A stretch of 25,653 nucleotides of DNA from an uncultured Candidatus Saccharibacteria bacterium (GTDB taxonomy: Bacteria > Patescibacteriota > Minisyncoccia > Minisyncoccales > CG1-02-41-26). Positions 2 through 21,837 of this stretch are shown here, one piece after another; positions within the stretch are counted from its first letter, which is position 1; every line of letters starts with the position of its first letter. The DNA lies in NCBI GenBank assembly GCA_964403365.1, contig CAYOFM010000001.1, forward strand, positions 1 to 25,653. The letters run 5' to 3'. The notes beneath the pieces are model-generated. The model did no database searches. It was given only the letters and a program-made list of their open reading frames with translations, and had not been told where the DNA came from. The position numbers were made by a program, and so were the translations under genes.

Positions 2-3000
2 AAGTTTATACTGCGTGATACGGCTATTAGGAAATTGGCAGAGATTAACGAGTATGAGCATAACGGAGAAATGCATAAGTTTACCAATAAGGATATTGCA
101 GATGCAGTGGATGAACTAAATAATATACCATTTGAGGGGTTAATTGATACATCTCGTAAGATTTATTCGATGATTATGCCAACCTCTGGCGGGAAAACAA
201 TTAAAGTTTCTCATAATAGTAAAAATGTTTCTAAGAGCTTACGTTTTATTGATTTTAATAATCCTAAAAATAATGATTTTGCTGTTACTGTTGAGTTTGA
301 AGCTATGGGTAAGAAAGGTATTCGTCCTGATATTGTAGTTTTTGTTAATGGTATTCCTTTTGCTGTGATAGAGAATAAGAAAGCGTCTGAATCAATAGAA
401 AAAGCTTTAAGCCAGCTAAATAGAAACCAAGGGGCTGATTACTGCCCAAAGCTATTTGTTTATCCGCAACTTTTAGTTGGGGCTAATAAAGAAGAATTGA
501 AATATGGTACAACAGGTACATTAAACAAGTTTTATGCTAACTGGAGAGAAAGGGGAGTGGATGAAGTAAAATTAAAAAATAAAGCTAAAAAGATTATTAG
601 TAAACCAATCAACGAAAAAACTTATTATCAAATTTTAAGTGATTTAAACGGAGCTACTTTTGGACATAAACAGCAAACCAGTCGCACACCAACCCCGCAG
701 GATTTATCAGTGATGGCTATATTTGAAAAAACTAGGTTACTTGATTTAGCTAAGAATCATATTTTATACGATGCTGGTATTAAGAAGATAATGCGTTATC
801 AGCAGTATTTTGCTATCCAAAAAATACTGAAACGAGTTGATCAAAAAGAAGAAACAAAAAAAGGAGTAAAGAGAAAAGGTGGTATAGTTTGGCATACACA
901 AGGGTCTGGCAAGTCTTTGACTATGGTAATGTTTGTAAAAGCTTTGATCGAGAATCCAGACATTATCAATCCAAGAGTACTAGTAGTAACTGATAGAAGG
1001 GATTTAGATAGGCAGATTAAAAAAACTTTTATAAACAGTGGGCTTAAAAAAGATACTATCCAAGTAAAAAGCGGGGAGCATTTATTGAGCTTAATCCGCA
1101 AAAATGATTTACGCGTTGTAACTACATTAATAGATAAGTTTCATTCAGCTAGCAAAAAGAAAACTGTTTTTGAAGATTTAGATGAGAACATCTTTGTTTT
1201 AATTGACGAAGCTCATCGTGGCCAACATGGGATGGCTAATTTAGAAATGAACAAAATGATTCCGAATGCTTGCTATATCGCTTTCACAGGTACGCCATTA
1301 CTTAAAAAAGACAAATCTAGGCAAAAGTTCGGCTCTTTTATTGATAAATATACTATTGATGATGCCTTAGATGATAAAATTATACTACCTTTAATTTACG
1401 AAGGTCGTTATGTTGATTTAAAACAAGACAAAAAGGAAATAAACAGGCAATTTGATAGATTAACAGATGGATTAGGTAAAAAATTGAAAGATCAATTATC
1501 AATTAACACAGAGAAGAACATTATTAAGAATAACCCACATAGAATTTTTGAGATTGCTTTTGATATTGAAAAACATTATTCAAAAATCTTTTCAGGGACT
1601 GGGCTAAAGGCACAGATTGTGGCTCCTTCAAAGTTTTCTGCTATGCTTTTTCAAAAGTATTTTGCAGAAAATAGCAAAATTAATACAGCTTTGGTTATTT
1701 CTGATGAGAATGGAATTATTGATGATAAAAATGAACACAGAAAAGAAGTTGAAGGATACCTAAGAGATATTAAAGAAAAATATAGAAGCTTACTTTCTTA
1801 TGAGAAAGATGTTATTAATAGCTTTGTGTATAATGATGATGGGGTAGAGATTTTGATTGTGGTGGATAAGCTTTTGACTGGTTTTGATGCCCCTAGAAAT
1901 ACAGTATTGTATTTAGCTAAAGAATTAAGAGATCATAACCTATTACAAGCTATTGCCAGAGTTAATAGATTGCATAATAACAAGGTTTTACCAAAAACTA
2001 GTGGGTATATTATTGATTACTCTGAAAATGCACAGAACATAAAGACAGCAATGCAGTTGTTTGGTAATTATGACGAAGAAGATGTAGAGGGAGCTTTGAT
2101 TAATGTACAAGATAAGGTCGATGAGCTGGAAGCTGGTTATAGCGAGCTACATGAAATTTTCAAAACCGTTAAAGGAGATGACGAAGCATATATCCAACAG
2201 TTATCAGACGAACCATTACGTAAAGAATTTTATGATGCTTTAAATAAGTTTATAAAAAGTTTTAATGAATGTATGGTTTTGCAAGGTTTTGTACATGAGT
2301 TTAATCATCTTGATGTTTATAGAAAAGAGTTAAAGAAGTTTATGGAACTTAGAAAGATTGCTAGCGTGCGTTATGCTGAAAGAGTTGATTTTAGCCAGTA
2401 CAAGCAAGCATTGATTAAAATAATGGATAATAATATAAAAGCAGAAGAAGCCGAGCTTTTGACTAAACAAATTACTATTACAGATAAGAAAGCTTTTGAT
2501 CAAGTGATTGAAGAAATGGGGTCAGACGCATCTAAAGCAGAGGCAATCGCAGCCCAAACCGACAGAATCATAACTGAAAAACAAGAAGCAGACCCTGTAT
2601 TTTACAGAAGATTTTCTGATAAAATAAGTGGTATTTTACAGAAAATGAGAGATAAAAAAATGGCTGATATTGAGGCATTAAAACAGTTAAAACTAATTGA
2701 CGATGAAATGAATAGTAAAAAAGATGATGAAATACCAGCTAAGATAAAAAAAGAGAAAGGAGCAGATATTTTTTATCGTAATTTACAGGATGATTTCATA
2801 CTGCATGATGTAGGTGATGAAAAGTTTGAAGAGATAATTTTGGAAATGTTTTTTGTATTAAAAAAAGAAGCGATTGTTGATTGGTACAGAAACAATGAAG
2901 TCAAACGAGTAATTTATAATAAGTTAGATGATTATCTTTACGATAATATAATCAAAGGAAAAGGTATAAAACTTACAAAAGAAGAGGCGAAAAGTATTAT

Positions 3001-3046
3001 TGACAAAACTATCAAGCTAGCAACAGAAAACTATTCAATTATATAA
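2..3046 (+). CDS. hsdR: Type I restriction endonuclease subunit R, 5'-truncated by the window edge
   Basis: Frame is open from base 2 (KFILRDTAIRKLAEIN), so the TTG at 35 is not the true start. Nuclease motif RPDIVVFVNGIPFAVIENK; SF2 motifs HTQGSGKS, LIDEAHR, FTGTP, LLTGFDAP, QAIARVNR. Confidence 0.96.
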   Translation, partial: KFILRDTAIRKLAEINEYEHNGEMHKFTNKDIADAVDELNNIPFEGLIDTSRKIYSMIMPTSGGKTIKVSHNSKNVSKSLRFIDFNNPKNNDFAVTVEFEAMGKKGIRPDIVVFVNGIPFAVIENKKASESIEKALSQLNRNQGADYCPKLFVYPQLLVGANKEELKYGTTGTLNKFYANWRERGVDEVKLKNKAKKIISKPINEKTYYQILSDLNGATFGHKQQTSRTPTPQDLSVMAIFEKTRLLDLAKNHILYDAGIKKIMRYQQYFAIQKILKRVDQKEETKKGVKRKGGIVWHTQGSGKSLTMVMFVKALIENPDIINPRVLVVTDRRDLDRQIKKTFINSGLKKDTIQVKSGEHLLSLIRKNDLRVVTTLIDKFHSASKKKTVFEDLDENIFVLIDEAHRGQHGMANLEMNKMIPNACYIAFTGTPLLKKDKSRQKFGSFIDKYTIDDALDDKIILPLIYEGRYVDLKQDKKEINRQFDRLTDGLGKKLKDQLSINTEKNIIKNNPHRIFEIAFDIEKHYSKIFSGTGLKAQIVAPSKFSAMLFQKYFAENSKINTALVISDENGIIDDKNEHRKEVEGYLRDIKEKYRSLLSYEKDVINSFVYNDDGVEILIVVDKLLTGFDAPRNTVLYLAKELRDHNLLQAIARVNRLHNNKVLPKTSGYIIDYSENAQNIKTAMQLFGNYDEEDVEGALINVQDKVDELEAGYSELHEIFKTVKGDDEAYIQQLSDEPLRKEFYDALNKFIKSFNECMVLQGFVHEFNHLDVYRKELKKFMELRKIASVRYAERVDFSQYKQALIKIMDNNIKAEEAELLTKQITITDKKAFDQVIEEMGSDASKAEAIAAQTDRIITEKQEADPVFYRRFSDKISGILQKMRDKKMADIEALKQLKLIDDEMNSKKDDEIPAKIKKEKGADIFYRNLQDDFILHDVGDEKFEEIILEMFFVLKKEAIVDWYRNNEVKRVIYNKLDDYLYDNIIKGKGIKLTKEEAKSIIDKTIKLATENYSII

Positions 3047-3054
3047 TCATATCT

Positions 3055-3759
3055 ATGGAGGAACAAACTTTTACTTATGGAAAGTATTCTTACCAATACT
3101 TTCTACTTAGAGAGCAACGTAAAACAGTGAGCTTGATTGTTCATCCGAATCTTAAGATAGTATTGAAGTGCCCAGCTATTTACAGCGAGAAAAAGATACA
3201 AAAGTTTCTTAAAGGCAAATGGCGTTGGCTAGAGAACCAGATTAAATATTTTAAGAAGTATCAAAAACAGATATTAACTAAAGAGTATATCTCTGGCGAA
3301 AGTTTTTTGTATCTAGGCAGACAGTATAAACTGGTTGTTAAAAAGGGAAAAGATGATAAGATAAGCTTGAAGCACGGTAGGCTGTTATTATCCACAACTA
3401 AGAATGTGGCTAATAAAAAACATAATAAAAAGATGTTACAGGATTGGTATTACCAAAGAACAGAAAAGATCTTTAAAGAGGAGTACGAAAAAATGTTAAA
3501 ATATTTTAAATATGATTTTCAGCCGAAACTAATTACTAGGGAGATGAAGAAAAGATGGGGTAGTTTTTTAAATCATAAAAAGATAATTCTTAATCCTAAA
3601 TTAATCCAAGCACCGAAAGAATGCATTGATTATGTTATTACCCACGAGCTGTGCCATATGAAGTATAAAAATCACGATGCGAAATTTTATAGGGCTTTAA
3701 AAAAAAGAATTCCTAACTGGAAAGAAATTAAAGAAAAGTTAGAGTTAAGATTTTTGTAA
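3055..3759 (+). CDS. YgjP-like / M48 (SprT-like, DUF45) zinc metalloprotein
   Basis: KRWGS and DYVITHELCH (HExxH) motifs; this family commonly follows hsdR. Confidence 0.9.
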   Translation: MEEQTFTYGKYSYQYFLLREQRKTVSLIVHPNLKIVLKCPAIYSEKKIQKFLKGKWRWLENQIKYFKKYQKQILTKEYISGESFLYLGRQYKLVVKKGKDDKISLKHGRLLLSTTKNVANKKHNKKMLQDWYYQRTEKIFKEEYEKMLKYFKYDFQPKLITREMKKRWGSFLNHKKIILNPKLIQAPKECIDYVITHELCHMKYKNHDAKFYRALKKRIPNWKEIKEKLELRFL

Positions 3760-3768
3760 GGAATGTAA

Positions 3769-3804
3769 AGTTTGTATGCATTACGAAAAAGATGTATACA
3801 AACT
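3769..3804. repeat. 13-bp inverted repeat with 10-nt spacer
   Basis: AGTTTGTATGCAT-TACGAAAAAG-ATGTATACAAACT, one G.T mismatch. Confidence 0.6.
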
Positions 3805-3839
3805 ATGCAAATAGAAATAAGTAAAAATATATAAAATTT

Positions 3840-4820
3840 ATGGAGGATTTTGAGGGAGGTTTGGGGGAGAAAATAAAGAAAGCTGATTATCTGATGACGC
3901 AGAAAAGATATTCAGAGGCGATTTTTGAGTTGAAAAAAGCACTTGATATCTTTTCTGAACAAGATTATTTATATTATCTTTTGGGTATAGCCCGTATGAA
4001 ATGTGGTAGATTTTTCCTAGCTAAACAAGCTTTGGAAAAAGCAAACATGTTGTCACCAAAACACTCTGAAAATTTAAGGTCGCTGGGCTGGGCAAAAGTA
4101 ATGCTTAGTGAGTTTGAAGAGGCAAGAAAAGATTTAAGAGAGGCCATAAGCCTAGATATGACAAATACTTTAGCTTACTTGGATTTAGCTATGAGTTATT
4201 TTAATTGCCTCGATTTTAAACAGGGTTTTGAGTGGCTAGAAAGGGCAAAAGCATTAGATCCACAAGATCAGTTTGTTTTGGAAAATTATAGAATTGCTAA
4301 AGAAACGGAGAAAGAGACACTAAGTTATCCTAAAGCAAAGTTAGCTGAATTAAAAAAGAGGCGCTTAGATCCAAAATTTCAAAAAGAAATGCGCTTAGCT
4401 ATGTTGGAAGAGTTTTTGCAAAAAGGTATTACATCTAAAGATGAAGCCGATGAGATTGTAGAAGAATTGAAATTAAATGGACTTTCAGCTGGGGCTACCC
4501 TACTTAAGGATGGCGATGCCAGTGAGGAGGAAATTAAAATTGCTAACGAGTATATTAAAATGCACAACGAGGTAGAGAATCTTGAGATAAAATTAACCAA
4601 AGAGGAAGAAAATGAAATAGGCGAAAGATTATTTTCTGACAAAGCGTCTTTATCAGAAACAAAAAAATGCATTTTACGTTTGGCACATCAAGGTACAGAA
4701 CAGTCCTTAGAACTTTTAAAAGATTTTGAAAAAAGCCATTCGGGTCAATTAAAAATTTGGGCTGAAATGGCAACACAAGAGTGCCAATCTTTTTTAGAAG
4801 TAGAGAAAGATAGGGGTTAG
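3840..4820 (+). CDS. Tetratricopeptide-repeat protein with a helical C-terminal domain
   Basis: About 4 TPR-like units (YYLLGIARMKCGRFFLAKQALEKA, LRSLGWAKVMLSEFEEARKDLREAISLD, AYLDLAMSYF...LERAKALDP). Confidence 0.85.
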   Translation: MEDFEGGLGEKIKKADYLMTQKRYSEAIFELKKALDIFSEQDYLYYLLGIARMKCGRFFLAKQALEKANMLSPKHSENLRSLGWAKVMLSEFEEARKDLREAISLDMTNTLAYLDLAMSYFNCLDFKQGFEWLERAKALDPQDQFVLENYRIAKETEKETLSYPKAKLAELKKRRLDPKFQKEMRLAMLEEFLQKGITSKDEADEIVEELKLNGLSAGATLLKDGDASEEEIKIANEYIKMHNEVENLEIKLTKEEENEIGERLFSDKASLSETKKCILRLAHQGTEQSLELLKDFEKSHSGQLKIWAEMATQECQSFLEVEKDRG

Positions 4821-4841
4821 CTCTGATTGATTTAAAAATTG
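4816..4841 (+). repeat. Direct repeat copy 1 (26 bp, 19-bp perfect core)
   Basis: GTTAGCTCTGATTGATTTAAAAATTG; overlaps the TPR gene TAG stop. Confidence 0.9.
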
Positions 4842-4865
4842 AAAGATAAATCAAAAAATAAAATT

Positions 4866-5327
4866 ATGGATGAAAAAAGATTAAAAGAATTTATTGTTCG
4901 AGCTAAGCAAAATACTTATGCCTCCAGCGGGGAAGGAGGGGAGTTGGTTTTAGCCGATGGATCAAAAGAGCTAGTGTTTGAAGATGGTGCCTTGAGATAC
5001 AGAGATAGGTATTTTGGCTCGCGTAATTTTGCGGGGCAAGAAGTTATTTTTGAGAATAAAAAAGCAATTTGGGGGATGAACTATTATGGCCAGATGGTTG
5101 CCAGTACTATTTACACAAAGCGGGTTTATAAATTTTTACAAAAAGCTTTAAAAATGGTTTCAATAAAAGAGCTGTTTCGCGGGCCAGCTGAGTTTTTTGA
5201 GGGTGATTTACGATATGTTAATGCTTCAGAGGGAGAATTAGCATCTTTTACAGGATTTGAAATGATTTATTACAAAGGGAAGCAAGTTTATCAATTATAC
5301 TATCACGGCGGGTTTATTAAAAAATAA
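4866..5327 (+). CDS. DUF5680-like protein
   Basis: FIVRAKQNTYA...YRDRYFG...FAGQEVIF...WGMNYYG...FRGP pattern; ATG at 4866 preferred over the TTG at 4839. Confidence 0.75.
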   Translation: MDEKRLKEFIVRAKQNTYASSGEGGELVLADGSKELVFEDGALRYRDRYFGSRNFAGQEVIFENKKAIWGMNYYGQMVASTIYTKRVYKFLQKALKMVSIKELFRGPAEFFEGDLRYVNASEGELASFTGFEMIYYKGKQVYQLYYHGGFIKK

Positions 5328-5328
5328 G

Positions 5329-5865
5329 ATGAAAAAAGTAATTTTAATAACAAGTAATCAGAATAAGTTGAGGGAATTTGAAAAAATTCTAGGTTTTAAA
5401 ATAAGGAACATAAGTTTGGATCTGGATGAAATCCAGGCAGTGAATGTGGAAGATGTAATTGAGCATAAAACAAAACAGGCATTTGAGAGAGTAGGGGAGC
5501 CAGTACTTTGCGAAGATACAGGATTATACTTTGATGCTTGGGGTGGCTTGCCTGGCGCTTTAATTAAGTGGTTTGATAAAACCATTGGTTATAATAATTT
5601 GTGTGGGTTATTGCAGGAAAACAGAAAAGCAAGAGCTGAGACAGTAATTAGCTATTTTAACGGGACAGACTACCTTAGTTTCAAGGGGGAGACTTTGGGT
5701 AGTATTAGTCTATCTCCGATGGGCACCACTAACTTTGGTTGGGATCCTATTTTTATCCCAGACGGTTTTAGTAAAACCTTTGCCCAAATGACGGCAGAAG
5801 AAAAGAACAAAATATCAATGAGAAAAATTGCCTTGAAAAAATTCAGAGATTTTTATATAAAATAA
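5329..5865 (+). CDS. HAM1/RdgB-family non-canonical purine NTP pyrophosphatase (ITPase-like)
   Basis: TSNQNKLRE, EDTGL...GLPG, FGWDPIF, KNKISMR (SHR motif variant). Confidence 0.93.
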   Translation: MKKVILITSNQNKLREFEKILGFKIRNISLDLDEIQAVNVEDVIEHKTKQAFERVGEPVLCEDTGLYFDAWGGLPGALIKWFDKTIGYNNLCGLLQENRKARAETVISYFNGTDYLSFKGETLGSISLSPMGTTNFGWDPIFIPDGFSKTFAQMTAEEKNKISMRKIALKKFRDFYIK

Positions 5866-5888
5866 GAGTTATTTAAAATAAATTTATT

Positions 5889-6275
5889 ATGAAGGAGAGT
5901 GTTAATACGATTATTCAAAATTCGGCGGGTAAGTATTTACTACAAATGAGAGATGGAACAGAGGGTATTTGCCATCCATTACAATGGAATTTTTTTGGTG
6001 GTGGTATGAAAAATAGTAAACCATTAGGAGAGGTAGCTAGAGAATTAAAAGAGGAATTAGGAATAGAAAGCAATGCAGAGGACTTTGATTTAGTAGGCGA
6101 TATCGCAGTGGGAGACTCTAAAGTGTATATTGTGAAGTATAAAAAAGAAGTAAATTGGCGTGATTTTGAGCTTTTTGAAGGTGCTGGAGTTGGGTATTTT
6201 ACCAAACAGGAGATGTTAAAAATTAACATCACAGAAAACACCAAATCAATTATTGAAAAATATTTAGGAAGATAA
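5889..6275 (+). CDS. Nudix hydrolase
   Basis: YLLQMRD...WNFFGGG...ARELKEELGI (Nudix box, first Glu absent). Confidence 0.85.
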   Translation: MKESVNTIIQNSAGKYLLQMRDGTEGICHPLQWNFFGGGMKNSKPLGEVARELKEELGIESNAEDFDLVGDIAVGDSKVYIVKYKKEVNWRDFELFEGAGVGYFTKQEMLKINITENTKSIIEKYLGR

Positions 6276-6277
6276 TA

Positions 6278-6303
6278 GTTAGCTCTGATTGATTTAGAAG
6301 TTG
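6278..6303 (+). repeat. Direct repeat copy 2
   Basis: GTTAGCTCTGATTGATTTAGAAGTTG; 24/26 identical to 4816-4841. Confidence 0.9.
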
Positions 6304-6321
6304 GGAGGTTTGGAAAATAGT

Positions 6322-6356
6322 ACAGCCCAGGGTATCCATGTGATACTCTGGGCTGT
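6322..6356. terminator. Hairpin between convergent genes, probable intrinsic terminator
   Basis: ACAGCCCAG-G-GTATC-CATGT-GATAC-T-CTGGGCTGT; short T-tract (ACTATTTT) on the - strand. Confidence 0.65.
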
Positions 6357-6380
6357 TTAGTTGGGAGGTGTTGGGGTGTG

Positions 6381-6782
6381 TTAGACCCTGACAGTCTCCG
6401 GTTTGGGATTTTGCGAGGGGGCCGATATCTTGACTGATTTTTCCAGAATATCGACCATTTTGGCTATGATTGTTGTGACGGCGATGTCATGCAGTAGCGT
6501 GAGGCCGTCAGCATGCTTATTAAGCCACGTACCACAGTGTACTATATACAATGAGGTACCAGGTAGACTATTTCCCCAGCCTTTGCCTTGCGCAGCAATT
6601 CGCCCCAGCGTTTCATGTCTGAGGTGTGCTACTTTCGCATAGACAGTTGGAGCAATCTGCTGATACAGATCTTGAGCATCTATATGCAGTCCTTGCTCAT
6701 CAAGGGCGGAAGGATGAATATCAATACTACTGATAACATCCTCTGCAATGCGACGGACAAGGGACTTCTTCTTTTTTCCCAT
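6381..6782 (-). CDS. Hypothetical protein (133 aa), no family recognised
   Basis: AGGAGG 8 nt before the ATG, upstream sigma70-like promoter, downstream hairpin. Confidence 0.8.
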   Translation of the reverse strand: MGKKKKSLVRRIAEDVISSIDIHPSALDEQGLHIDAQDLYQQIAPTVYAKVAHLRHETLGRIAAQGKGWGNSLPGTSLYIVHCGTWLNKHADGLTLLHDIAVTTIIAKMVDILEKSVKISAPSQNPKPETVRV

Positions 6783-6835
6783 TGTTGAACCCTCCTATGT
6801 TGCGATTCGGTATTACCTACAAACACAATGATGAT

Positions 6836-6864
6836 ACCTTAACATACTAGTTAATATCTGTCAA
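6836..6864 (-). promoter_or_regulatory. Sigma70-type promoter for the 6381-6782 ORF
   Basis: TTGACA-17 nt-TAAGGT with TG-n extension. Confidence 0.7.
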
Positions 6865-6992
6865 GTTTTTTTGGTGTTGCAGTTCGGAGCAGAATGTACC
6901 CCCAAACAAGAAAGGAGGGGATGTTTAGAAAACATGCAGTCAGTTTTGTTTATTAATCTTAAACGATCTAAAAAAGTAAGGAGCTTCAGAAA

Positions 6993-8028
6993 ATGAGAAT
7001 TTTGATCGTACCAATGGTGTTGTTGATATCTGTGTTTCTAACATGAGACAAATCCAGAAATCGAAAAAGTCATCACTTCTGCCCTTAATGCAACCTACAC
7101 TGCCCTAATCAGTGGCGATATGCAAAAACTCCAAAGAGATTTAGAGGGATTGTATGGCGACGAGGCATTAGCTTTGCAGGCGTTTAATCGTCCAAAGGGT
7201 ATAAGGGCAACATCAGACTTGCGCGGTTTTACTTACGAAGAAGTCAGTGCTGATTTCACTTTCCATTATAGTGATAGTGAGATTGCAGAAGAAAACGCTG
7301 TAATAGTAATGACCGAGGATAACAAAGAAAAGTCCTCCATTAATGGAGAATCAGTGATTTCTTTAGAACAGATCAAACACCAATTCATTCTTGAAAAGCG
7401 TGATGGCAGATGGCTTATCGTTGGAGACCTTTTTCTTAATGGCCAGCAACCTGAAATTTCAGATGGCAAGGCAGTACCTCCTATTAAGGGAGAGATAGAC
7501 GATAGTCAAGTAGAGAATATGGCTCCGGCTGGCAATCCAATGATGTATAATAGGAGTCGTGCAGTGTCATATGCTCGACAATGGGCGTATTCCCATAACT
7601 GGCGTTATCGTAGGCAGCCATTGGACTGTACTAATTTTATTTCTCAATGTCTTAAGGCAGGTAACTGGTTTTATGTGGGGTGGGGGCATCCAGGTTCGCG
7701 TGCTAATCTTAATCAATGGTGGTATACTTGGTTCACACAAACTTATACATGGGTTAATGCTAATGATTGGTCAATATTTACGCTAAGACGGCCTCGTGGT
7801 GTTCGTATTCCATTTGCAAGGAATTTGAAACTTGGAGATATCGTCCAGATTGACTATACACGAAATGGCGTAATGAACCATTCACTGATAGTCACTAAAA
7901 AGGTTGGGAATGAAGTCTATGTATCAGCCCATACACAAGCAAGATTAGACAAAAAGTTGGCTGACATAGAAAGAAGTTATTCAAGCGCCACTTTTCATTA
8001 TGTGAGCATATTTGACGCCTTTTATTAA
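6993..8028 (+). pseudogene. Secreted putative amidase (Amidase_6-like) with a frameshift just after the signal peptide
   Basis: AGGAG then ATG at 6993 gives MRILIVPMVLLISVFLT*. The +1 frame continues HETNPEIEKVITSALNATY into ORF 7120-8028, which has YNRSRAVSYARQWA...DCTNFISQCL...GDIVQID...HSLIV...AHT. Confidence 0.7.
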
Positions 8029-18230: not shown

Positions 18231-19493
18231 CTAAACCCTCTTAATATCCGCACCAAGTGATTGGAGCCTCTCCTCTATTTTCTCATACCCTCTATCTATC
18301 TGATAAATATTATTTATCGTAGTAGTTCCCTCAGCTATTAAGCCAGCTACAATCAAGCTAGCTCCAGCCCTAATATCCCACGATTCAATTGATACACCAT
18401 GCAATTTATTTGGACCAAGCACAAACGCTCGATGAGGATCTACTATCTCTATATCAGCTCCCATTTTACGCAACTCTTGCACATATTGCAAACGATTTTC
18501 ATAAAGTGGATCATGTATTAAACTTTTACCTTTAATTTGAGTTAATAATGGCACCATTAAAGGCATTAAGTCTGTAGGGAATCCTGGGTGTGGTAAAGCC
18601 TGAATACGACAAGGTGTCAGCTCTTCCCCTGCCTCTATTTCAATATCACTTTCCCCTATCTTAATATTATTGATACCCATCTGGCTTAGAGTAGCCACAA
18701 ACATAGATAAATCATCTGGGTTAATATTGTTTACTTTTACTTTCCCCCCAGTGACAATACCGGCAATTAAAAATGTACCTGCTTCAATATAGTCGCCTAC
18801 TATTGTATGCTCTGTGCCTTTTAGCTCTTTTACTCCCTCAATTTCTAAACTGTGAGAAGATATCCATTTAATTTTAGCTCCCATACTATTTAACATTTTA
18901 ACTAAATCCTGCACATGTGGCTCTACGGCTGCTGTTTCAATAATTGTTTTACCCTCTGCTAAAACCCCTGCCATAATTACATTCTCAGTAGCAGTTACGC
19001 TAAACTCTGGTAAAACTATTTTTTTGCCAACAAGCTTATCTGCATTAAAATGATAAAATTCATCTTCTATTTCCACACTTACTCCCAACTCTTTTAAAGC
19101 ATCTAAATGAGTAGTAATCGGTCTTAAGCCAATTTTATCTCCCCCAGGCCTAGATATCTTAAAGTTTTTAAACCTAGGCAAAAGCGCTCCAATAAATAAT
19201 ACCGAAGTACGAGTTTTAGAAAACTTTTCAAAATCTATTTTAGATGGATCAACAGAATCTACTGCTTTTATCTTTACCCCTCTCTCTCCTACCCACTCTA
19301 TTTCTGCCCCCATATCTTTTAAAACCTCAATCATATTCTTTATATCCTCTACTAGTGGTAAATTACTAATTAAACATTCTTCTTTTGTAAGCAAAACAGC
19401 GGCAATGATTGCCGCAGCTGCGTTTTTGGACCCGCGTATTTCTACTTCTCCCTCTAATTTATTTCCACCGTTAATAACAAAATGTTTAGACAT
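18231..19493 (-). CDS. murA: UDP-N-acetylglucosamine 1-carboxyvinyltransferase
   Basis: GSKNAA, PGGDKIGLRP, SVTATEN, DYIEAGT, PHPGFPTDL, DIRAGA, IDRGYE. Confidence 0.97.
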   Translation of the reverse strand: MSKHFVINGGNKLEGEVEIRGSKNAAAAIIAAVLLTKEECLISNLPLVEDIKNMIEVLKDMGAEIEWVGERGVKIKAVDSVDPSKIDFEKFSKTRTSVLFIGALLPRFKNFKISRPGGDKIGLRPITTHLDALKELGVSVEIEDEFYHFNADKLVGKKIVLPEFSVTATENVIMAGVLAEGKTIIETAAVEPHVQDLVKMLNSMGAKIKWISSHSLEIEGVKELKGTEHTIVGDYIEAGTFLIAGIVTGGKVKVNNINPDDLSMFVATLSQMGINNIKIGESDIEIEAGEELTPCRIQALPHPGFPTDLMPLMVPLLTQIKGKSLIHDPLYENRLQYVQELRKMGADIEIVDPHRAFVLGPNKLHGVSIESWDIRAGASLIVAGLIAEGTTTINNIYQIDRGYEKIEERLQSLGADIKRV

Positions 19494-19525
19494 GAATAAT
19501 ATAAAAACTTATTTTTTACAAACTT

Positions 19526-19554
19526 ATCATACCTTTTAATTCCTATCTTTTCAA
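19526..19554 (-). promoter_or_regulatory. Sigma70-type promoter for murA
   Basis: TTGAAA-17 nt-TATGAT. Confidence 0.6.
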
Positions 19555-19566
19555 GTTGTATAAAAT

Positions 19567-19605
19567 AAAGGACGGTTGGGAAAATGGTTTTCCCTTCCGT
19601 CCTTT
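19567..19605 (-). terminator. Intrinsic terminator of the dockerin gene
   Basis: - strand: AAAGGACGG-AA-GGGAAAA-CCA-TTTTCCC-AA-CCGTCCTTT followed by ATTTT. Confidence 0.75.
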
Positions 19606-19619
19606 TGTACCTTTTGGCT

Positions 19620-20462
19620 TCATCTCTTTTTTATGCCACCCCAAGTTATGGGTAGCCTATTCTGCTGGCTACGCTCACTATCGTGAGCGTCAGTGAGCAA
19701 ATTAAGAACATCCTCTTCTATCTGCTCACTAGCCAACAAATCATCCACCAATTCTTCAAATGATAGTGGATTCTTGGCTGGCGCCCCTTTCCCATCATAG
19801 GTCGGGAACTCGAAAATAATACCTGCTGAATATTGTAAAATCAGCATAGCATCACGGGTAGTCACTCCTCCAAGACCTGTGACATCAGCTCGTACCCATT
19901 CTTCTGATGTCAATTCTTCAGTCCCCAAGACGTGCAACAATATCATCACAGCATCTTGGGACGAAATCATACCATCAGCGTTGATATCGCCAATCTCGGG
20001 TATTATCTCAAAAACAATACCCTCTGTTTTCCCACCAAGCACCAACAAGTTAGCACCCTCGGGTTCAGGCCAACCATTAATCAACACTTTTTTAAACACT
20101 ATGTCAACAGGTCCACAGTAGTGTTTAATATTAAGCTTGAAAAAAATGGCTGGTTCAACTAATGGCGTTGCCCCTGTGGCAACAATTTTAATTAAACCAT
20201 CTTGGACTGACCAAACATAGAACCAGTCCTCAAAACCACCAGCTGGTTCTACTACATAAAATGGCGGCATCGTCGCTTGCGCCACTTTAACTTCAATTTC
20301 AAGGTCAAGTGAGCCAATCGCCCGATCTGGGTTCACCATCAAGTTTACCCCTTCTCCTTGAATAGCAAACCAAAACACTGGATCGCCACCTGCTGCAAAA
20401 ACAACAGAGGACAGGACCAAAAACACCATAATCGTCGCACAGATTCCCAAATTCTTCTTCAT
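19620..20462 (-). CDS. Secreted protein with a cohesin-like beta domain, a type I dockerin and a C-terminal TWGGIKKR motif
   Basis: Signal peptide ending SSVVFA; dockerin repeats GDINADGMISSQDAVMILLHVLG and ADVTGLGGVTTRDAMLILQYSAG; AAGGAG SD. Confidence 0.85.
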   Translation of the reverse strand: MKKNLGICATIMVFLVLSSVVFAAGGDPVFWFAIQGEGVNLMVNPDRAIGSLDLEIEVKVAQATMPPFYVVEPAGGFEDWFYVWSVQDGLIKIVATGATPLVEPAIFFKLNIKHYCGPVDIVFKKVLINGWPEPEGANLLVLGGKTEGIVFEIIPEIGDINADGMISSQDAVMILLHVLGTEELTSEEWVRADVTGLGGVTTRDAMLILQYSAGIIFEFPTYDGKGAPAKNPLSFEELVDDLLASEQIEEDVLNLLTDAHDSERSQQNRLPITWGGIKKR

Positions 20463-20583
20463 TTCAATCTCCTTGAGATGTGCCTGCCCTTGGACAGGCT
20501 TTAGTTAAGTATTACCTTTCACCCTGTTTAAAATGTTAAACAAGGCAAAAAGCAACAAAAAATGATGCCTTAGCATCAATCAA

Positions 20584-20612
20584 ATACTAACATATTTTAC
20601 AACATTTGTCAA
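20584..20612 (-). promoter_or_regulatory. Sigma70-type promoter for the dockerin gene
   Basis: TTGACA-17 nt-TAGTAT with TG-n extension; palindromes TGATGC-CTTA-GCATCA (20563-20578) and TGTTTAA-AATG-TTAAACA (20525-20542) downstream. Confidence 0.7.
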
Positions 20613-20631
20613 GCCCGAACAATCGAAAAAC

Positions 20632-21837
20632 CTACTTCTTTTCAATAATAAAGACTTGGTTGTTGCGGTGGACTTTGTGGGGTAGCTTAATGGCACAGTT
20701 ATCTCCTTTTTTGGCAACCTTAATTGCCTTATTATCCTTCTCCATATACTTTATCTTATGCCTAAGATAAGTATCTTTACCTTCAATACTTAAATCATCA
20801 TTAAGCTTCAGTCCCCTACTCTGCACCTCAACAATAGCTACTTTTAAATTAGAATAATAATGGATAACCTTGCCAATGTGAGTACGTTTTAAGGGTGATA
20901 AGTTATCTGCTTGGTCATAACTAATACCCTGCTTACTCGGCGTACCAAAATAAAAACCAGTAGAAAACCCACGGTTATACACATTAGCTAATTGTTTCTT
21001 CCATTGTTTAACCTTAGTATCAGTAAAGGTTTTATTATAATAACTATCTATGGCTTCTCTATAACACTTAGTAACTGTACCGATATAGCCTGGGTCTCTT
21101 TTTCTTCCTTCTATTTTAAACGAATCTATACCTGCTTTAATTAGTTCTGGAATGTACTCAATCATACATAAATCCTTAGGATTAAGAAAATACTTACCTT
21201 GATTATCTATTTGTTTGCCATCTTCATCAGTTAAAGTCCATATTTTACGGCAAGGTTGTGAACAAGCCCCGCAGTTAGCTGAAGTGTTAAATAAATAAGC
21301 AGAAAGTATGCATCTACCAGAGATAGATACGCACATAGCCCCGTGGACAAATGTTTCTATCTCCACCTTCACCTTTTTCTTTATTTCTTTAATTTGCTTT
21401 AAAGTCATCTCCCTAGCCAAAACCACTCGTTGGGTCCCCAAAGATTTAAAAAACTTTGTTGTTTGCCAGTTAGAAACATTGGCTTGGGTAGAGATAAAAA
21501 ATGGTACTTTGTATTTTTTAGCTAACAATATAGCCGCCATATCCCAAACAATTACAGCATCTACTCCTGCCTGCTTAGCTTTTTTAATTATCTTTTCTGC
21601 CTTAACTAAATCATTATTATATAAAACAGAGTTAACAGTAAGGTACGCTTTTAATTTATATGTATGGCACCTATCTATAAACTTTGGTAATTCACTCAAA
21701 GTAATATTATTAGCCCTAGCTCTCATACTTAAATCACTGCAACCAAAATATACCGCATCGGCATAATCTTTACAGGCCTCAAGAGATGTCCAATCTCTAA
21801 TTGGGGCCATTAACTCTGGTTTTTTTATTTTCATCAT
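20632..21837 (-). CDS. Peptidase U32-family protein (TrhP/YegQ-like Fe-S RNA hydroxylase)
   Basis: KPELMAP, ADAVYFG, STQANV, RVVLARE, FVHGAMCVSISGRC...CSQPCR, SFKIEGR; C-terminal beta-barrel. Confidence 0.9.
   Translation of the reverse strand: MMKIKKPELMAPIRDWTSLEACKDYADAVYFGCSDLSMRARANNITLSELPKFIDRCHTYKLKAYLTVNSVLYNNDLVKAEKIIKKAKQAGVDAVIVWDMAAILLAKKYKVPFFISTQANVSNWQTTKFFKSLGTQRVVLAREMTLKQIKEIKKKVKVEIETFVHGAMCVSISGRCILSAYLFNTSANCGACSQPCRKIWTLTDEDGKQIDNQGKYFLNPKDLCMIEYIPELIKAGIDSFKIEGRKRDPGYIGTVTKCYREAIDSYYNKTFTDTKVKQWKKQLANVYNRGFSTGFYFGTPSKQGISYDQADNLSPLKRTHIGKVIHYYSNLKVAIVEVQSRGLKLNDDLSIEGKDTYLRHKIKYMEKDNKAIKVAKKGDNCAIKLPHKVHRNNQVFIIEKK

What the first reader, a model, noticed from the sequence alone, without database searches (positions are those of the whole stretch)
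19567..20612. Cohesin-dockerin surface protein ending in a TWGxIK motif, inserted as an autonomous cassette in a housekeeping region
The gene has its own promoter, SD and terminator, is GC-richer, and sits between the U32 gene and murA. The protein comprises a signal peptide, a cohesin-like beta domain, a dockerin and C-terminal RLPITWGGIKKR. From recollection, terminal TWGxIK motifs typify secreted proteins of Poribacteria and Latescibacterota-related phyla and may be sorting signals. The gene may therefore be acquired from, or mimic, a host lineage and mediate attachment (inference).
Basis: partly seen in the sequence, partly recalled or inferred. Interest (0 to 1): 0.7.

Follow-up and report, generated by a model that had tools for sequence, protein, structure and literature searches.

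The report
Cohesin-dockerin surface protein with TWG tail
The gene is real and built as described, but it is a home-grown, fast-evolving surface protein of one family of ultra-small (Patescibacteria/CPR) bacteria, and its TWGxIK ending is an uncatalogued C-terminal tag that this family puts on many unrelated exported proteins.

Summary
Observation confirmed. Window 19620-20462 (minus strand) encodes a 280-aa exported protein: signal peptide, cohesin-fold domain (by fold only; no Pfam Cohesin match), Pfam dockerin, helical linker, and the C-terminal ...RLPITWGGIKKR. It has its own SD, a strong terminator, and GC3 in the genome's 98th percentile.

The reading "acquired from, or mimicking, a host lineage" is not supported. 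All full-length relatives lie in the same CPR family. They sit at the same locus (after PD-(D/E)XK, before murA) in G027 and in metagenome contig L002. Most relatives have PDEXK directly next to murA, so the gene is often lost or gained.

The main result concerns the tail. In this CPR family, 15 of 28 matches to the TWGx[IVM][KR] DNA pattern lie within 4 codons of a stop, and all 13 intact ORFs among them have signal peptides. They fall into about 10 unrelated protein families in 11 of 39 genomes. The comparison figures are 0 of 30 in other Patescibacteria and 1 of 26 in the rest of the order.

The same core, extended to TWGx[IV]KALYR, ends proteins in Eisenbacteria, Krumholzibacteria, Latescibacteria and Gemmatimonadota MAGs. 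Earlier reports of this scan found that tail on other DNA; this is its first CPR case. Its reader is unknown. No T9SS domain, C25 peptidase or sortase was found in this genome.

The parts
20584..20612 (-). promoter-like site (TTGACA, 17 nt, TAGTAT with TG)
   Evidence: 10 of 12 consensus matches. Consensus match only; not shown to be active.
20563..20578 (-). short hairpin plus T-run just after the -10 box (terminator of the U32 gene, or a leader element)
   Evidence: terminator-like scan.
20482..20499 (-). GC-rich hairpin in the 5' leader
   Evidence: Function unknown.
20469..20474 (-). Shine-Dalgarno AAGGAG, 6 nt before the ATG
   Evidence: Read. Supports Met1 rather than the database call at Met12 (P0002).
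19620..20462 (-). CDS, 280 aa plus stop (P0001)
20391..20462 (-). Sec-type signal peptide, residues 1-24
   Evidence: By inspection (KK, hydrophobic core, VFA|A). Conserved in homologues. No predictor was run.
19995..20393 (-). cohesin-fold beta-sandwich, residues 24-156
   Evidence: Model. Foldseek top 3 hits are cohesins. VIA-align Z 9.4-10.5 against many cohesins. Residues 67-237 align to the Pfam Cohesin + dockerin region of P0105. No direct Pfam Cohesin match.
19830..19991 (-). type I dockerin, residues 158-211
   Evidence: Pfam PF00404, E 4.6e-8. VIA-align Z 13.4, rmsd 1.0. The second Ca loop (DVTGLGG..D) departs from DxNxDG at positions 3 and 5 (read).
19662..19829 (-). conserved linker (EFPxYDGKGAPAKNPLSF) and helical hairpin, residues 212-267
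   Evidence: Alignments. Helices 235-245 and 250-265 have pLDDT 77-92. The same linker precedes T9SS C-terminal domains in P0108, P0113, P0119 and P0151.
19623..19661 (-). C-terminal TWG tail, residues 268-280 (NRLPITWGGIKKR); core TWGGIK at 19629-19646
   Evidence: T and G invariant, W and K at least 90% conserved, against a mean column identity of 39%. Recurs on unrelated exported proteins.
19557..19605 (-). intrinsic terminator (two-tier hairpin plus U-run)
   Evidence: dG -24.7 kcal/mol, z -5.6. Inverted repeat I1.

Best explanation
The gene encodes a Sec-exported surface protein of an ultra-small Patescibacteria bacterium found in salt-lake metagenomes. Its GTDB family includes a MAG that NCBI names Candidatus Gribaldobacteria.

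The protein has one cohesin-fold module, one type I dockerin, a conserved linker with a helical hairpin, and a C-terminal K/R-L-x-x-T-W-G-x-[IV]-K tail. It is a fast-evolving, frequently lost member of a small family confined to this CPR family. Members keep the same chromosomal place, after the PD-(D/E)XK gene and before murA.

The tail is a portable C-terminal tag that this CPR family uses on many unrelated exported proteins. It shares its core with the TWGx[IV]KALYR tail of Eisenbacteria, Krumholzibacteria, Latescibacteria and Gemmatimonadota.

Most likely mechanism (inferred, not shown): after Sec export, the tail is recognised by an unidentified envelope factor that retains or places the protein at the cell surface. 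Cohesin and dockerin then dock proteins in a calcium-dependent way. The genome holds only this one dockerin and this one cohesin-fold domain. The partner is therefore either another copy of the same protein (head-to-tail chains or dimers) or a module on another cell.

Shown here: architecture, folds, distribution, synteny, tail recurrence. Inferred: surface retention, docking, and what reads the tail.
For: Architecture:
- ORF, dockerin, model and fold matches.

Family:
- An exhaustive phmmer search found one full-length relative (P0003, 46% identity, ending TTWGGIKQ).
- It also found P0023, P0025, P0047, P0090 and P0093 with the same dockerin-linker-TWG module.

CPR origin and locus:
- G027 has the order PEGA protein | family member | orf171 | murA.
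- Contig L002 has rpsI (70% identity) - PDEXK (66%) - P0093.
- L005 has the PEGA homologue next to P0090, as in G027.
- G030's member is NCBI-named Candidatus Gribaldobacteria.

Restriction:
- The full module is in 3 of 39 family genomes.
- It was found in 0 of 400 other Patescibacteria at E <= 1e-8.

Tail as a tag:
- It occurs twice in the G000 proteome, both times at the C-terminus of a signal-peptide protein.
- Across the family, the pattern has 28 hits against 12 for the reversed control.
- 15 of the 28 lie in frame within 4 codons of a stop. All 13 intact ORFs among them have Sec or lipoprotein signal peptides.
- By BLASTP they form about 10 separate families.
- The comparison figures are 0 of 30 sampled hits in other Patescibacteria and 1 of 26 in other families of the order.

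Outside CPR:
- At least 120 loci carry TWGx[IV]KALYR. 63 of 85 examined end exactly at the R.

Sorting-signal position:
- Homologous dockerin-linker modules in P0108, P0113, P0119 and P0151 carry a T9SS C-terminal domain where this family has the tail.

Single pair:
- One dockerin and no Pfam cohesin elsewhere in G000.
Against: - No reader of the tail was identified.
- Sortase was not found in G000, which is 90% complete.
- The S41 C-terminal peptidase is present in all five genomes tested, so it does not discriminate.
- Searches for the T9SS C-terminal domain and C25 peptidase found nothing, but their control genomes were silent too.
- The second Ca loop of the dockerin is degenerate in this subgroup, so Ca-dependent docking may be weakened.
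- The position-6 residue of the tail is sometimes Arg (P0047, the C17 protein). This argues against covalent attachment through a Lys.
- The cohesin assignment rests on a medium-confidence model (pLDDT 71), not on sequence.
- High GC3 and the patchy distribution (3 of 39 genomes) fit lateral movement within the family as well as vertical descent with loss.
- The signal peptide was judged by eye only.
Confidence: 0.6

Rival explanations
1. Recent horizontal acquisition from a host lineage, or mimicry of it. The episymbiont took a TWG-tailed cohesin-dockerin gene from a Latescibacterota- or Poribacteria-type host. It uses the tail to be handled by the host's own sorting machinery and so attach.
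For: - GC3 is in the 98th percentile.
- The gene has its own promoter-like site and a terminator.
- The gene is missing from the syntenic rpsI-PDEXK-murA locus in G007, G013, G015 and G017.
- The tail core is abundant in Eisenbacteria, Krumholzibacteria and Latescibacteria MAGs.
- The dockerin-linker resembles that of T9SS-tagged proteins.
- Cohesin-dockerin surface complexes with T9SS anchors have been described in Cloacimonadota of a saline Antarctic lake (PMC8542988). The window's DNA is held by salt-lake metagenome runs.
Against: - No non-CPR full-length homologue turned up in 1.8 billion representatives.
- Positional orthologues exist in other genomes of the same CPR family.
- The tail is on about 10 unrelated exported families in 11 of 39 family genomes, so it is a native system and not one borrowed gene.
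- Tail loci outside CPR have 49-73% GC (mostly 58-73%), against 44% here.
- Other native secreted-protein genes in G000 are equally GC3-rich.
- A protein secreted by an epibiont would not pass through the host periplasm, where host sorting would act (inference).
Confidence: 0.1
2. Ancient transfer of the module. The ancestor of this CPR family acquired a dockerin-linker-sorting-tag module, and possibly the tag system itself, from a T9SS-bearing bacterium of the FCB/Gemmatimonadota-related group. The bulky T9SS domain was lost or never taken, and the short TWG tag was kept. This is compatible with the best explanation for present-day function.
For: - The linker is homologous to that of T9SS-tagged dockerin proteins (P0113 E 7e-4 and P0138 E 2e-6 for the post-dockerin segment alone).
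- The tail is concentrated in one family of Patescibacteria: 15 of 28 hits, against 0 of 30 and 1 of 26 elsewhere.
- The same core is widespread in diderm candidate phyla.
- An earlier scan note (e1-1201725, not checked here) reports a Poribacteria variant K-L-T-T-T-W-G-x-[LV]-K. It resembles the CPR form and also occurs directly before T9SS domains.
Against: - A six-residue core could arise by convergence.
- No tree was built.
- The CPR tails lack the ALYR extension.
- No shared reader gene was found in either group. A C25 peptidase sits next to tail genes in only 2 of about 120 non-CPR loci and was not found in the five CPR genomes searched.
Confidence: 0.3
3. The tail is not a sorting signal. 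It is a terminal binding or structural peptide, for example a strand or short helix that plugs into a partner protein or into the envelope polymer, and it needs no dedicated enzyme or machinery.
For: - No candidate sorting enzyme was found.
- No hydrophobic anchor follows the tail.
- Only 0-5 residues follow the core.
- The tail is amphipathic and basic (W, I/V, K/R).
- TWG-tailed small proteins sit next to a conserved cysteine-rich secreted protein in four genomes, which could be a partner.
Against: - The tail recurs on about 10 unrelated folds and only at the extreme C-terminus of exported proteins. That is the signature of an address tag.
- It occupies the position of a T9SS sorting domain in homologous modules.
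- The model gives it low confidence, with no packing against the body (pLDDT below 50 for residues 273-280).
Confidence: 0.2

Closest known systems
Non-cellulosomal cohesin-dockerin proteins, including single polypeptides with both modules (Ruminococcus bromii Amy4; Archaeoglobus fulgidus cohesin, PDB 2xdh)
   Same: - One cohesin-fold module and one type I dockerin, with no enzyme attached.
- 2xdh is the best cohesin match (Foldseek E 4e-4, VIA-align Z 10.5).
- Dockerin matches solved type I dockerins at Z 11-13.
   Different: - No Pfam Cohesin match.
- The second Ca loop is degenerate.
- The host is a 0.6-Mb CPR bacterium with no other dockerin.
- The protein carries a C-terminal TWG tail, which none of these has. 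The Amy4 comparison is from my own knowledge.
   Same: - Homologous dockerin plus 'FP...APxxNPKS' linker and helical hairpin.
- A C-terminal targeting element follows at the same place.
   Different: - Those proteins have a roughly 75-residue beta-sandwich domain (NYPNPFNPETW...) read by T9SS and PorU.
- This one has 6-13 residues and no such domain.
- No T9SS domain was found in the five CPR genomes searched (control silent).
TWGx[IV]KALYR terminal decapeptide of Eisenbacteria, Krumholzibacteria, Latescibacteria and Gemmatimonadota MAGs
   Same: - Identical T-W-G-x-[IV]-K core.
- Sits at the extreme C-terminus of otherwise unrelated proteins.
- No Pfam or NCBIfam model matches it.
   Different: - The CPR tails lack ALYR and end 0-5 variable residues after K/R.
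- They are usually preceded by K-[LM]-x-x rather than P-[VT]-x-E-x-[ST].
- The genomes are low-GC and ultra-small, and no T9SS domain was found in them.
Tripartite C-terminal sorting signals (LPXTG/sortase, PEP-CTERM/exosortase, GlyGly-CTERM/rhombosortase)
   Same: - A short conserved C-terminal motif on many unrelated exported proteins of one lineage.
- 'LPITWG' superficially recalls LPXTG.
   Different: - No transmembrane helix or basic cluster follows the motif.
- LP is not conserved (LL, AP, LA, RR in relatives).
- Sortase was not found in G000.

Membership tests
Dockerin type I (PF00404) | Sequence match above Pfam's gathering score | tested here: met
   33.6 bits against a cut-off of 22.9, residues 158-211. 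Confirmed on the DNA.
Dockerin type I (PF00404) | Duplicated EF-hand-like Ca-binding loop plus helix fold | tested here: met
   VIA-align Z 11-13.4, rmsd 1.0-2.1, over 62-71 residues against solved dockerins.
Dockerin type I (PF00404) | Both Ca loops with D/N at positions 1, 3, 5 and D at 12 | tested here: inconclusive
   Loop 1 (DINADGMISSQD) is canonical. Loop 2 (DVTGLGGVTTRD) has T and L at positions 3 and 5. P0025, P0047, P0090 and P0093 keep canonical second loops.
Cohesin (PF00963) | Sequence match to the Pfam model | tested here: not met
   No match at E <= 1 for the protein or anywhere in the genome. A profile of the domain against PDB sequences found no cohesin.
Cohesin (PF00963) | Nine-strand jelly-roll beta-sandwich like solved cohesins | tested here: met
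   The top three Foldseek hits are cohesins. Z 9.4-10.5 over 119-126 residues against more than 20 cohesin entries. The model is of medium confidence.
Cohesin (PF00963) | Binds a dockerin | not testable with these tools
   Needs a binding assay.
T9SS type A C-terminal sorting domain (PF18962) | Roughly 75-residue C-terminal beta-sandwich | tested here: not met
   No Pfam or NCBIfam match on residues 210-280. The protein ends 7 residues after the T of TWG.
Sortase substrate (LPXTG-type signal) | LPXTG-like motif, then a hydrophobic helix, then basic residues | tested here: not met
   Nothing hydrophobic follows the motif. LP is not conserved among relatives. Sortase was not found in G000.
TWG C-terminal tail (uncatalogued class) | T-W-G-x-[IVM]-[KR] within a few residues of the C-terminus of a signal-peptide protein | tested here: met
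   TWGGIK is followed by KR and the stop. The core is conserved in all family members.
TWG C-terminal tail (uncatalogued class) | Same tail on unrelated exported proteins of the same lineage | tested here: met
   13 complete tailed ORFs with signal peptides, in about 10 BLASTP families, in the CPR family. A second tailed protein exists in G000 itself.
TWG C-terminal tail (uncatalogued class) | ALYR extension, as in Eisenbacteria and Krumholzibacteria | tested here: not met
   The CPR tails end in KR, Q, IEP, STL, S, NDA and the like. The ALYR form was seen only in high-GC non-CPR MAGs.

The most novel reading that the evidence does not exclude
The TWG tail is a true address tag whose reader needs neither an outer membrane nor T9SS. 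It is shared by ancient transfer between one CPR family and the Eisenbacteria / Krumholzibacteria / Latescibacteria group. In this reading the single cohesin-dockerin protein is the episymbiont's adhesin. It plugs into the cohesin-dockerin surface scaffolds of a host or neighbour cell, giving cross-species cohesin-dockerin docking.
Probability: 0.12. Interest if true: 0.85.

Novelty: new variant of a known kind. Interest (0 to 1): 0.62.

Why it matters
Short C-terminal tags that sort surface proteins are a known kind of system (LPXTG, PEP-CTERM, the T9SS domain). The TWG tail has no Pfam or NCBIfam model, and I found no paper on it.

Finding it as a family-wide tag in ultra-small Patescibacteria narrows the possible mechanisms. 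These genomes are about 0.6 Mb, and I found no T9SS domain or C25 peptidase in them and no sortase in G000. Whatever reads the tail should be encoded among a few hundred genes, and it probably does not depend on type IX secretion.

Comparative genomics within one family is therefore feasible: 11 of the 39 genomes carry the tail. The tail also marks the likely surface proteome of an episymbiont-type lineage, including its only cohesin-dockerin pair. These proteins are candidates for cell-cell attachment.

Tried and rejected
- Complex prediction, cohesin-fold domain against dockerin-linker with 2 Ca: no verdict (score 0.15, mark 0.32). It says nothing either way.
- The look-up of sequencing runs: no RNA holder listed, so nothing can be said on expression.
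- Pfam Cohesin on the protein and on the genome: no match.
- Profile of the N-domain against PDB sequences: only a chance hit, E 0.96.
- NCBIfam on the tail segment: nothing.
- Rfam on 19400-20700: only sub-threshold chance matches.
- Flanking direct repeats or an insertion scar: only an 11-nt AT-rich pair at 19511 and 20592, taken as chance.
- PF18962 and PF01364 searches in five CPR genomes found nothing, but the control genomes were silent too. They show only 'not found'. A tblastn of a C25 peptidase from a non-CPR tail locus against G000 also found nothing.
- C25 peptidase as a general neighbour of tail genes: seen in only 2 of about 120 non-CPR loci, so it is a weak lead.
- Homologues of the second tailed protein (contig C17): none in the family or in the 5.8-billion-protein set.
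- Paper searches for 'TWGxIK' and 'KALYR': nothing relevant.
- The two matches in a MAG titled 'Patescibacteria group' (L112) are internal to ORFs, not tails.
- Covalent linkage through the tail's Lys (by analogy with Lpp, from my own knowledge): set aside, because Arg replaces Lys in some tails.
Full report
WHAT IS THERE

The interval holds one gene on the minus strand, 19620-20462, encoding 280 aa. AAGGAG sits 6 nt before the ATG. This supports Met1 rather than the Met12 start used in the public protein set (P0002).

A promoter-like site (TTGACA-17-TAGTAT with TG) lies at 20612-20584. Such matches are only about 2.5-fold over shuffles in this stretch. The gene ends in a strong two-tier hairpin with a U-run (dG -24.7 kcal/mol, z -5.6).

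Pfam finds a type I dockerin at residues 158-211. Nothing in Pfam or NCBIfam matches the N-terminal 156 residues or the last 70.

An AlphaFold2 model built on a nine-sequence family alignment has mean pLDDT 71. Residues 24-156 form a beta-sandwich. Its best Foldseek matches are cohesins: 2xdh, 2vo8 and 2jh2, at E 4-7e-4. VIA-align gives Z 9.4-10.5 over about 120 residues against more than twenty cohesin entries, and Z 13.4 for the dockerin. phmmer also aligns residues 67-237 to a segment of P0105 that Pfam calls Cohesin plus Dockerin.

The second Ca loop of the dockerin is degenerate here (T and L at positions 3 and 5). It is canonical in several relatives.

COMPOSITION

The gene has GC 0.44 and GC3 0.404. 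Long ORFs of the genome average GC3 0.273 +/- 0.045, which puts the gene in the 98th percentile. The other top-GC3 genes are mostly signal-peptide or lipoprotein genes, including the genome's second TWG-tailed gene. High GC3 is a property of this genome's surface-protein genes and does not single this one out.

WHOSE GENE IS IT

An exhaustive phmmer search of 1.84 billion representatives found 2595 dockerin-level hits but only one full-length relative. That is P0003, 46% identical, ending TTWGGIKQ. Five further proteins (P0023, P0025, P0047, P0090, P0093) share the cohesin-like domain, the dockerin, the 'FPxYxGKGAP' linker, the helical hairpin and a terminal TWGx[IV][KR]. P0138 is a variant ending TLGELKRR.

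The genome is 632 kb, 35% GC and 90% complete. In its GTDB family the full module occurs in 3 of 39 genomes: G000, G027 and G030. In 400 other Patescibacteria it was not found at E <= 1e-8. G030's copy is the NCBI protein named 'Candidatus Gribaldobacteria bacterium'.

SYNTENY

Relatives G007, G013, G015 and G017 have rplM-rpsI-PDEXK-murA-mreB with PDEXK directly next to murA. The U32 gene and the cohesin-dockerin gene are therefore extra in G000.

Other family members sit at the same place:
- In G027 the order is PEGA protein (opposite strand), family member, a 171-aa ORF, murA.
- In metagenome contig L002 the order is rpsI (70% identical to the window's), PDEXK (66%), P0093.
- In L005, P0090 lies beside the homologue of G027's PEGA protein.

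G027 is not G000's nearest relative by MurA (64% against 70% for G007). The simplest history is an old gene at this locus that evolves fast and is often lost, or is exchanged within the family. It is not a recent import from another phylum.

THE TAIL

In the family alignment T and G are invariant and W and K at least 90% conserved, against a mean column identity of 39%. In all ORF translations of G000, TWG.[ILVM][KR] occurs exactly twice. One copy is here. The other is 4 residues from the end of an unrelated 364-aa lipoprotein on contig C17, which also carries clpP, tig and ppa.

A DNA pattern for the core was run over the 39 family genomes. It gave 28 hits against 12 for the reversed control.
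- 15 of the 28 lie in frame within 4 codons of a stop.
- 13 of these are complete ORFs with Sec or lipoprotein signal peptides.
- One (G033) has the tail shifted out of frame at the very end of a small exported protein. One (G062) is a fragment.
- By all-against-all BLASTP the 13 fall into about 10 families.
- They come from 11 of the 39 genomes.

The same pattern gave 0 true tails among 30 sampled hits from other Patescibacteria families. It gave 1 among 26 hits from 89 other genomes of the order. The consensus is K-[LM]-x-x-T-W-G-x-[IV]-K plus 0-5 residues. The tail is thus a native, family-wide C-terminal tag of exported proteins.

OUTSIDE CPR

By my own arithmetic about three would be expected by chance.
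- Of 85 occurrences examined, 63 end exactly at the R and 80 lie within 6 residues of the stop.
- The contigs have 49-73% GC, mostly 58-73%.
- Their titles name Eisenbacteria, Krumholzibacteria, Latescibacteria and Gemmatimonadota.

It agrees with earlier notes of this scan, which found the tail on other DNA but not in Patescibacteria. Poribacteria were not tested here.

In P0108, P0113, P0119 and P0151 the dockerin-linker-hairpin is followed by a T9SS C-terminal domain exactly where the CPR family has the tail. By position, the tail occupies the place of a sorting signal.

WHAT READS IT

This is not known.
- Sortase was not found in G000 but is present in four relatives.
- An S41 C-terminal peptidase is in all five genomes tested, so it does not discriminate.
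- No T9SS domain or C25 peptidase was found in five family genomes, though the control genomes were silent.
- In one non-CPR locus three tailed genes are followed by a C25 peptidase. Only 2 of about 120 loci show this.

MECHANISM

Shown: an exported protein with one cohesin fold, one dockerin and a lineage-wide terminal tag.

Inferred: the tag retains or places the protein at the cell surface, and the modules dock proteins. G000 has only this one dockerin and no other recognisable cohesin. The partner is therefore either a second copy of the same protein or a module on another cell. A complex prediction gave no verdict.

VERDICT

The host-acquisition or mimicry reading is not supported. The finding is re-read as the first CPR instance of an uncatalogued C-terminal tag, carried by a family-restricted cohesin-dockerin surface protein.

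Noticed in passing
window 20632-21837 (minus strand): The U32 peptidase gene is itself accessory. Among 40 relatives only G021 has it (74% identity), and there it sits at an unrelated locus. In G000 its start overlaps the stop of the PD-(D/E)XK gene.
   Followed up: partly
G000 contig C17 (L001:39-2713): A cysteine-rich secreted protein (500 aa) lies head-to-head with the second TWG-tailed gene, a 364-aa lipoprotein with no homologue anywhere. The same pairing (cysteine-rich protein next to a small, non-alignable TWG-tailed exported protein) recurs in G021, G019 and G033. It may be a partner pair.
   Followed up: partly
L063 (G033:C19), about 200-600: A small signal-peptide protein ends at a stop. 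A perfect tail (GKLSTTWGSIKKQ) then follows in another frame. This is a frameshift at the very end: either an assembly error or a tail being lost.
   Followed up: no
G000 genome-wide: Genes with the highest GC3 (0.37-0.51 against a mean of 0.27) are mostly signal-peptide or lipoprotein genes on contigs C2, C23, C17 and C42. The surface proteome appears compositionally distinct.
   Followed up: no
L078 (JAPEKQ010000030.1) 96-7998: A non-CPR MAG contig carries three TWGGIKALYR-tailed genes in a row, followed by a multihaem cytochrome and a C25 (gingipain/PorU-type) peptidase with its propeptide.
   Followed up: partly
L048 (G030:C54) 419-1627, compared with P0025: G030's family member (P0153) lacks the cohesin-like domain that its 56%-identical relative P0025 has, and its linker is cut down to about 10 residues before the tail. 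The tail survives when other parts are lost.
   Followed up: no
L253 (G487, another family of the same order): A 282-aa exported protein ends in TTTTWGYIK. Its N-terminus (…TFVFQFG…) looks like those of the tailed proteins of G030 (L067) and G010 (L203). This was the only tail seen outside the family within the order.
   Followed up: no
window 20482-20499 and 20563-20578: Two hairpins lie in the 120-nt leader between the promoter-like site and the SD. One carries a T-run immediately after the -10 box. It could be the U32 terminator or a leader attenuator.
   Followed up: no
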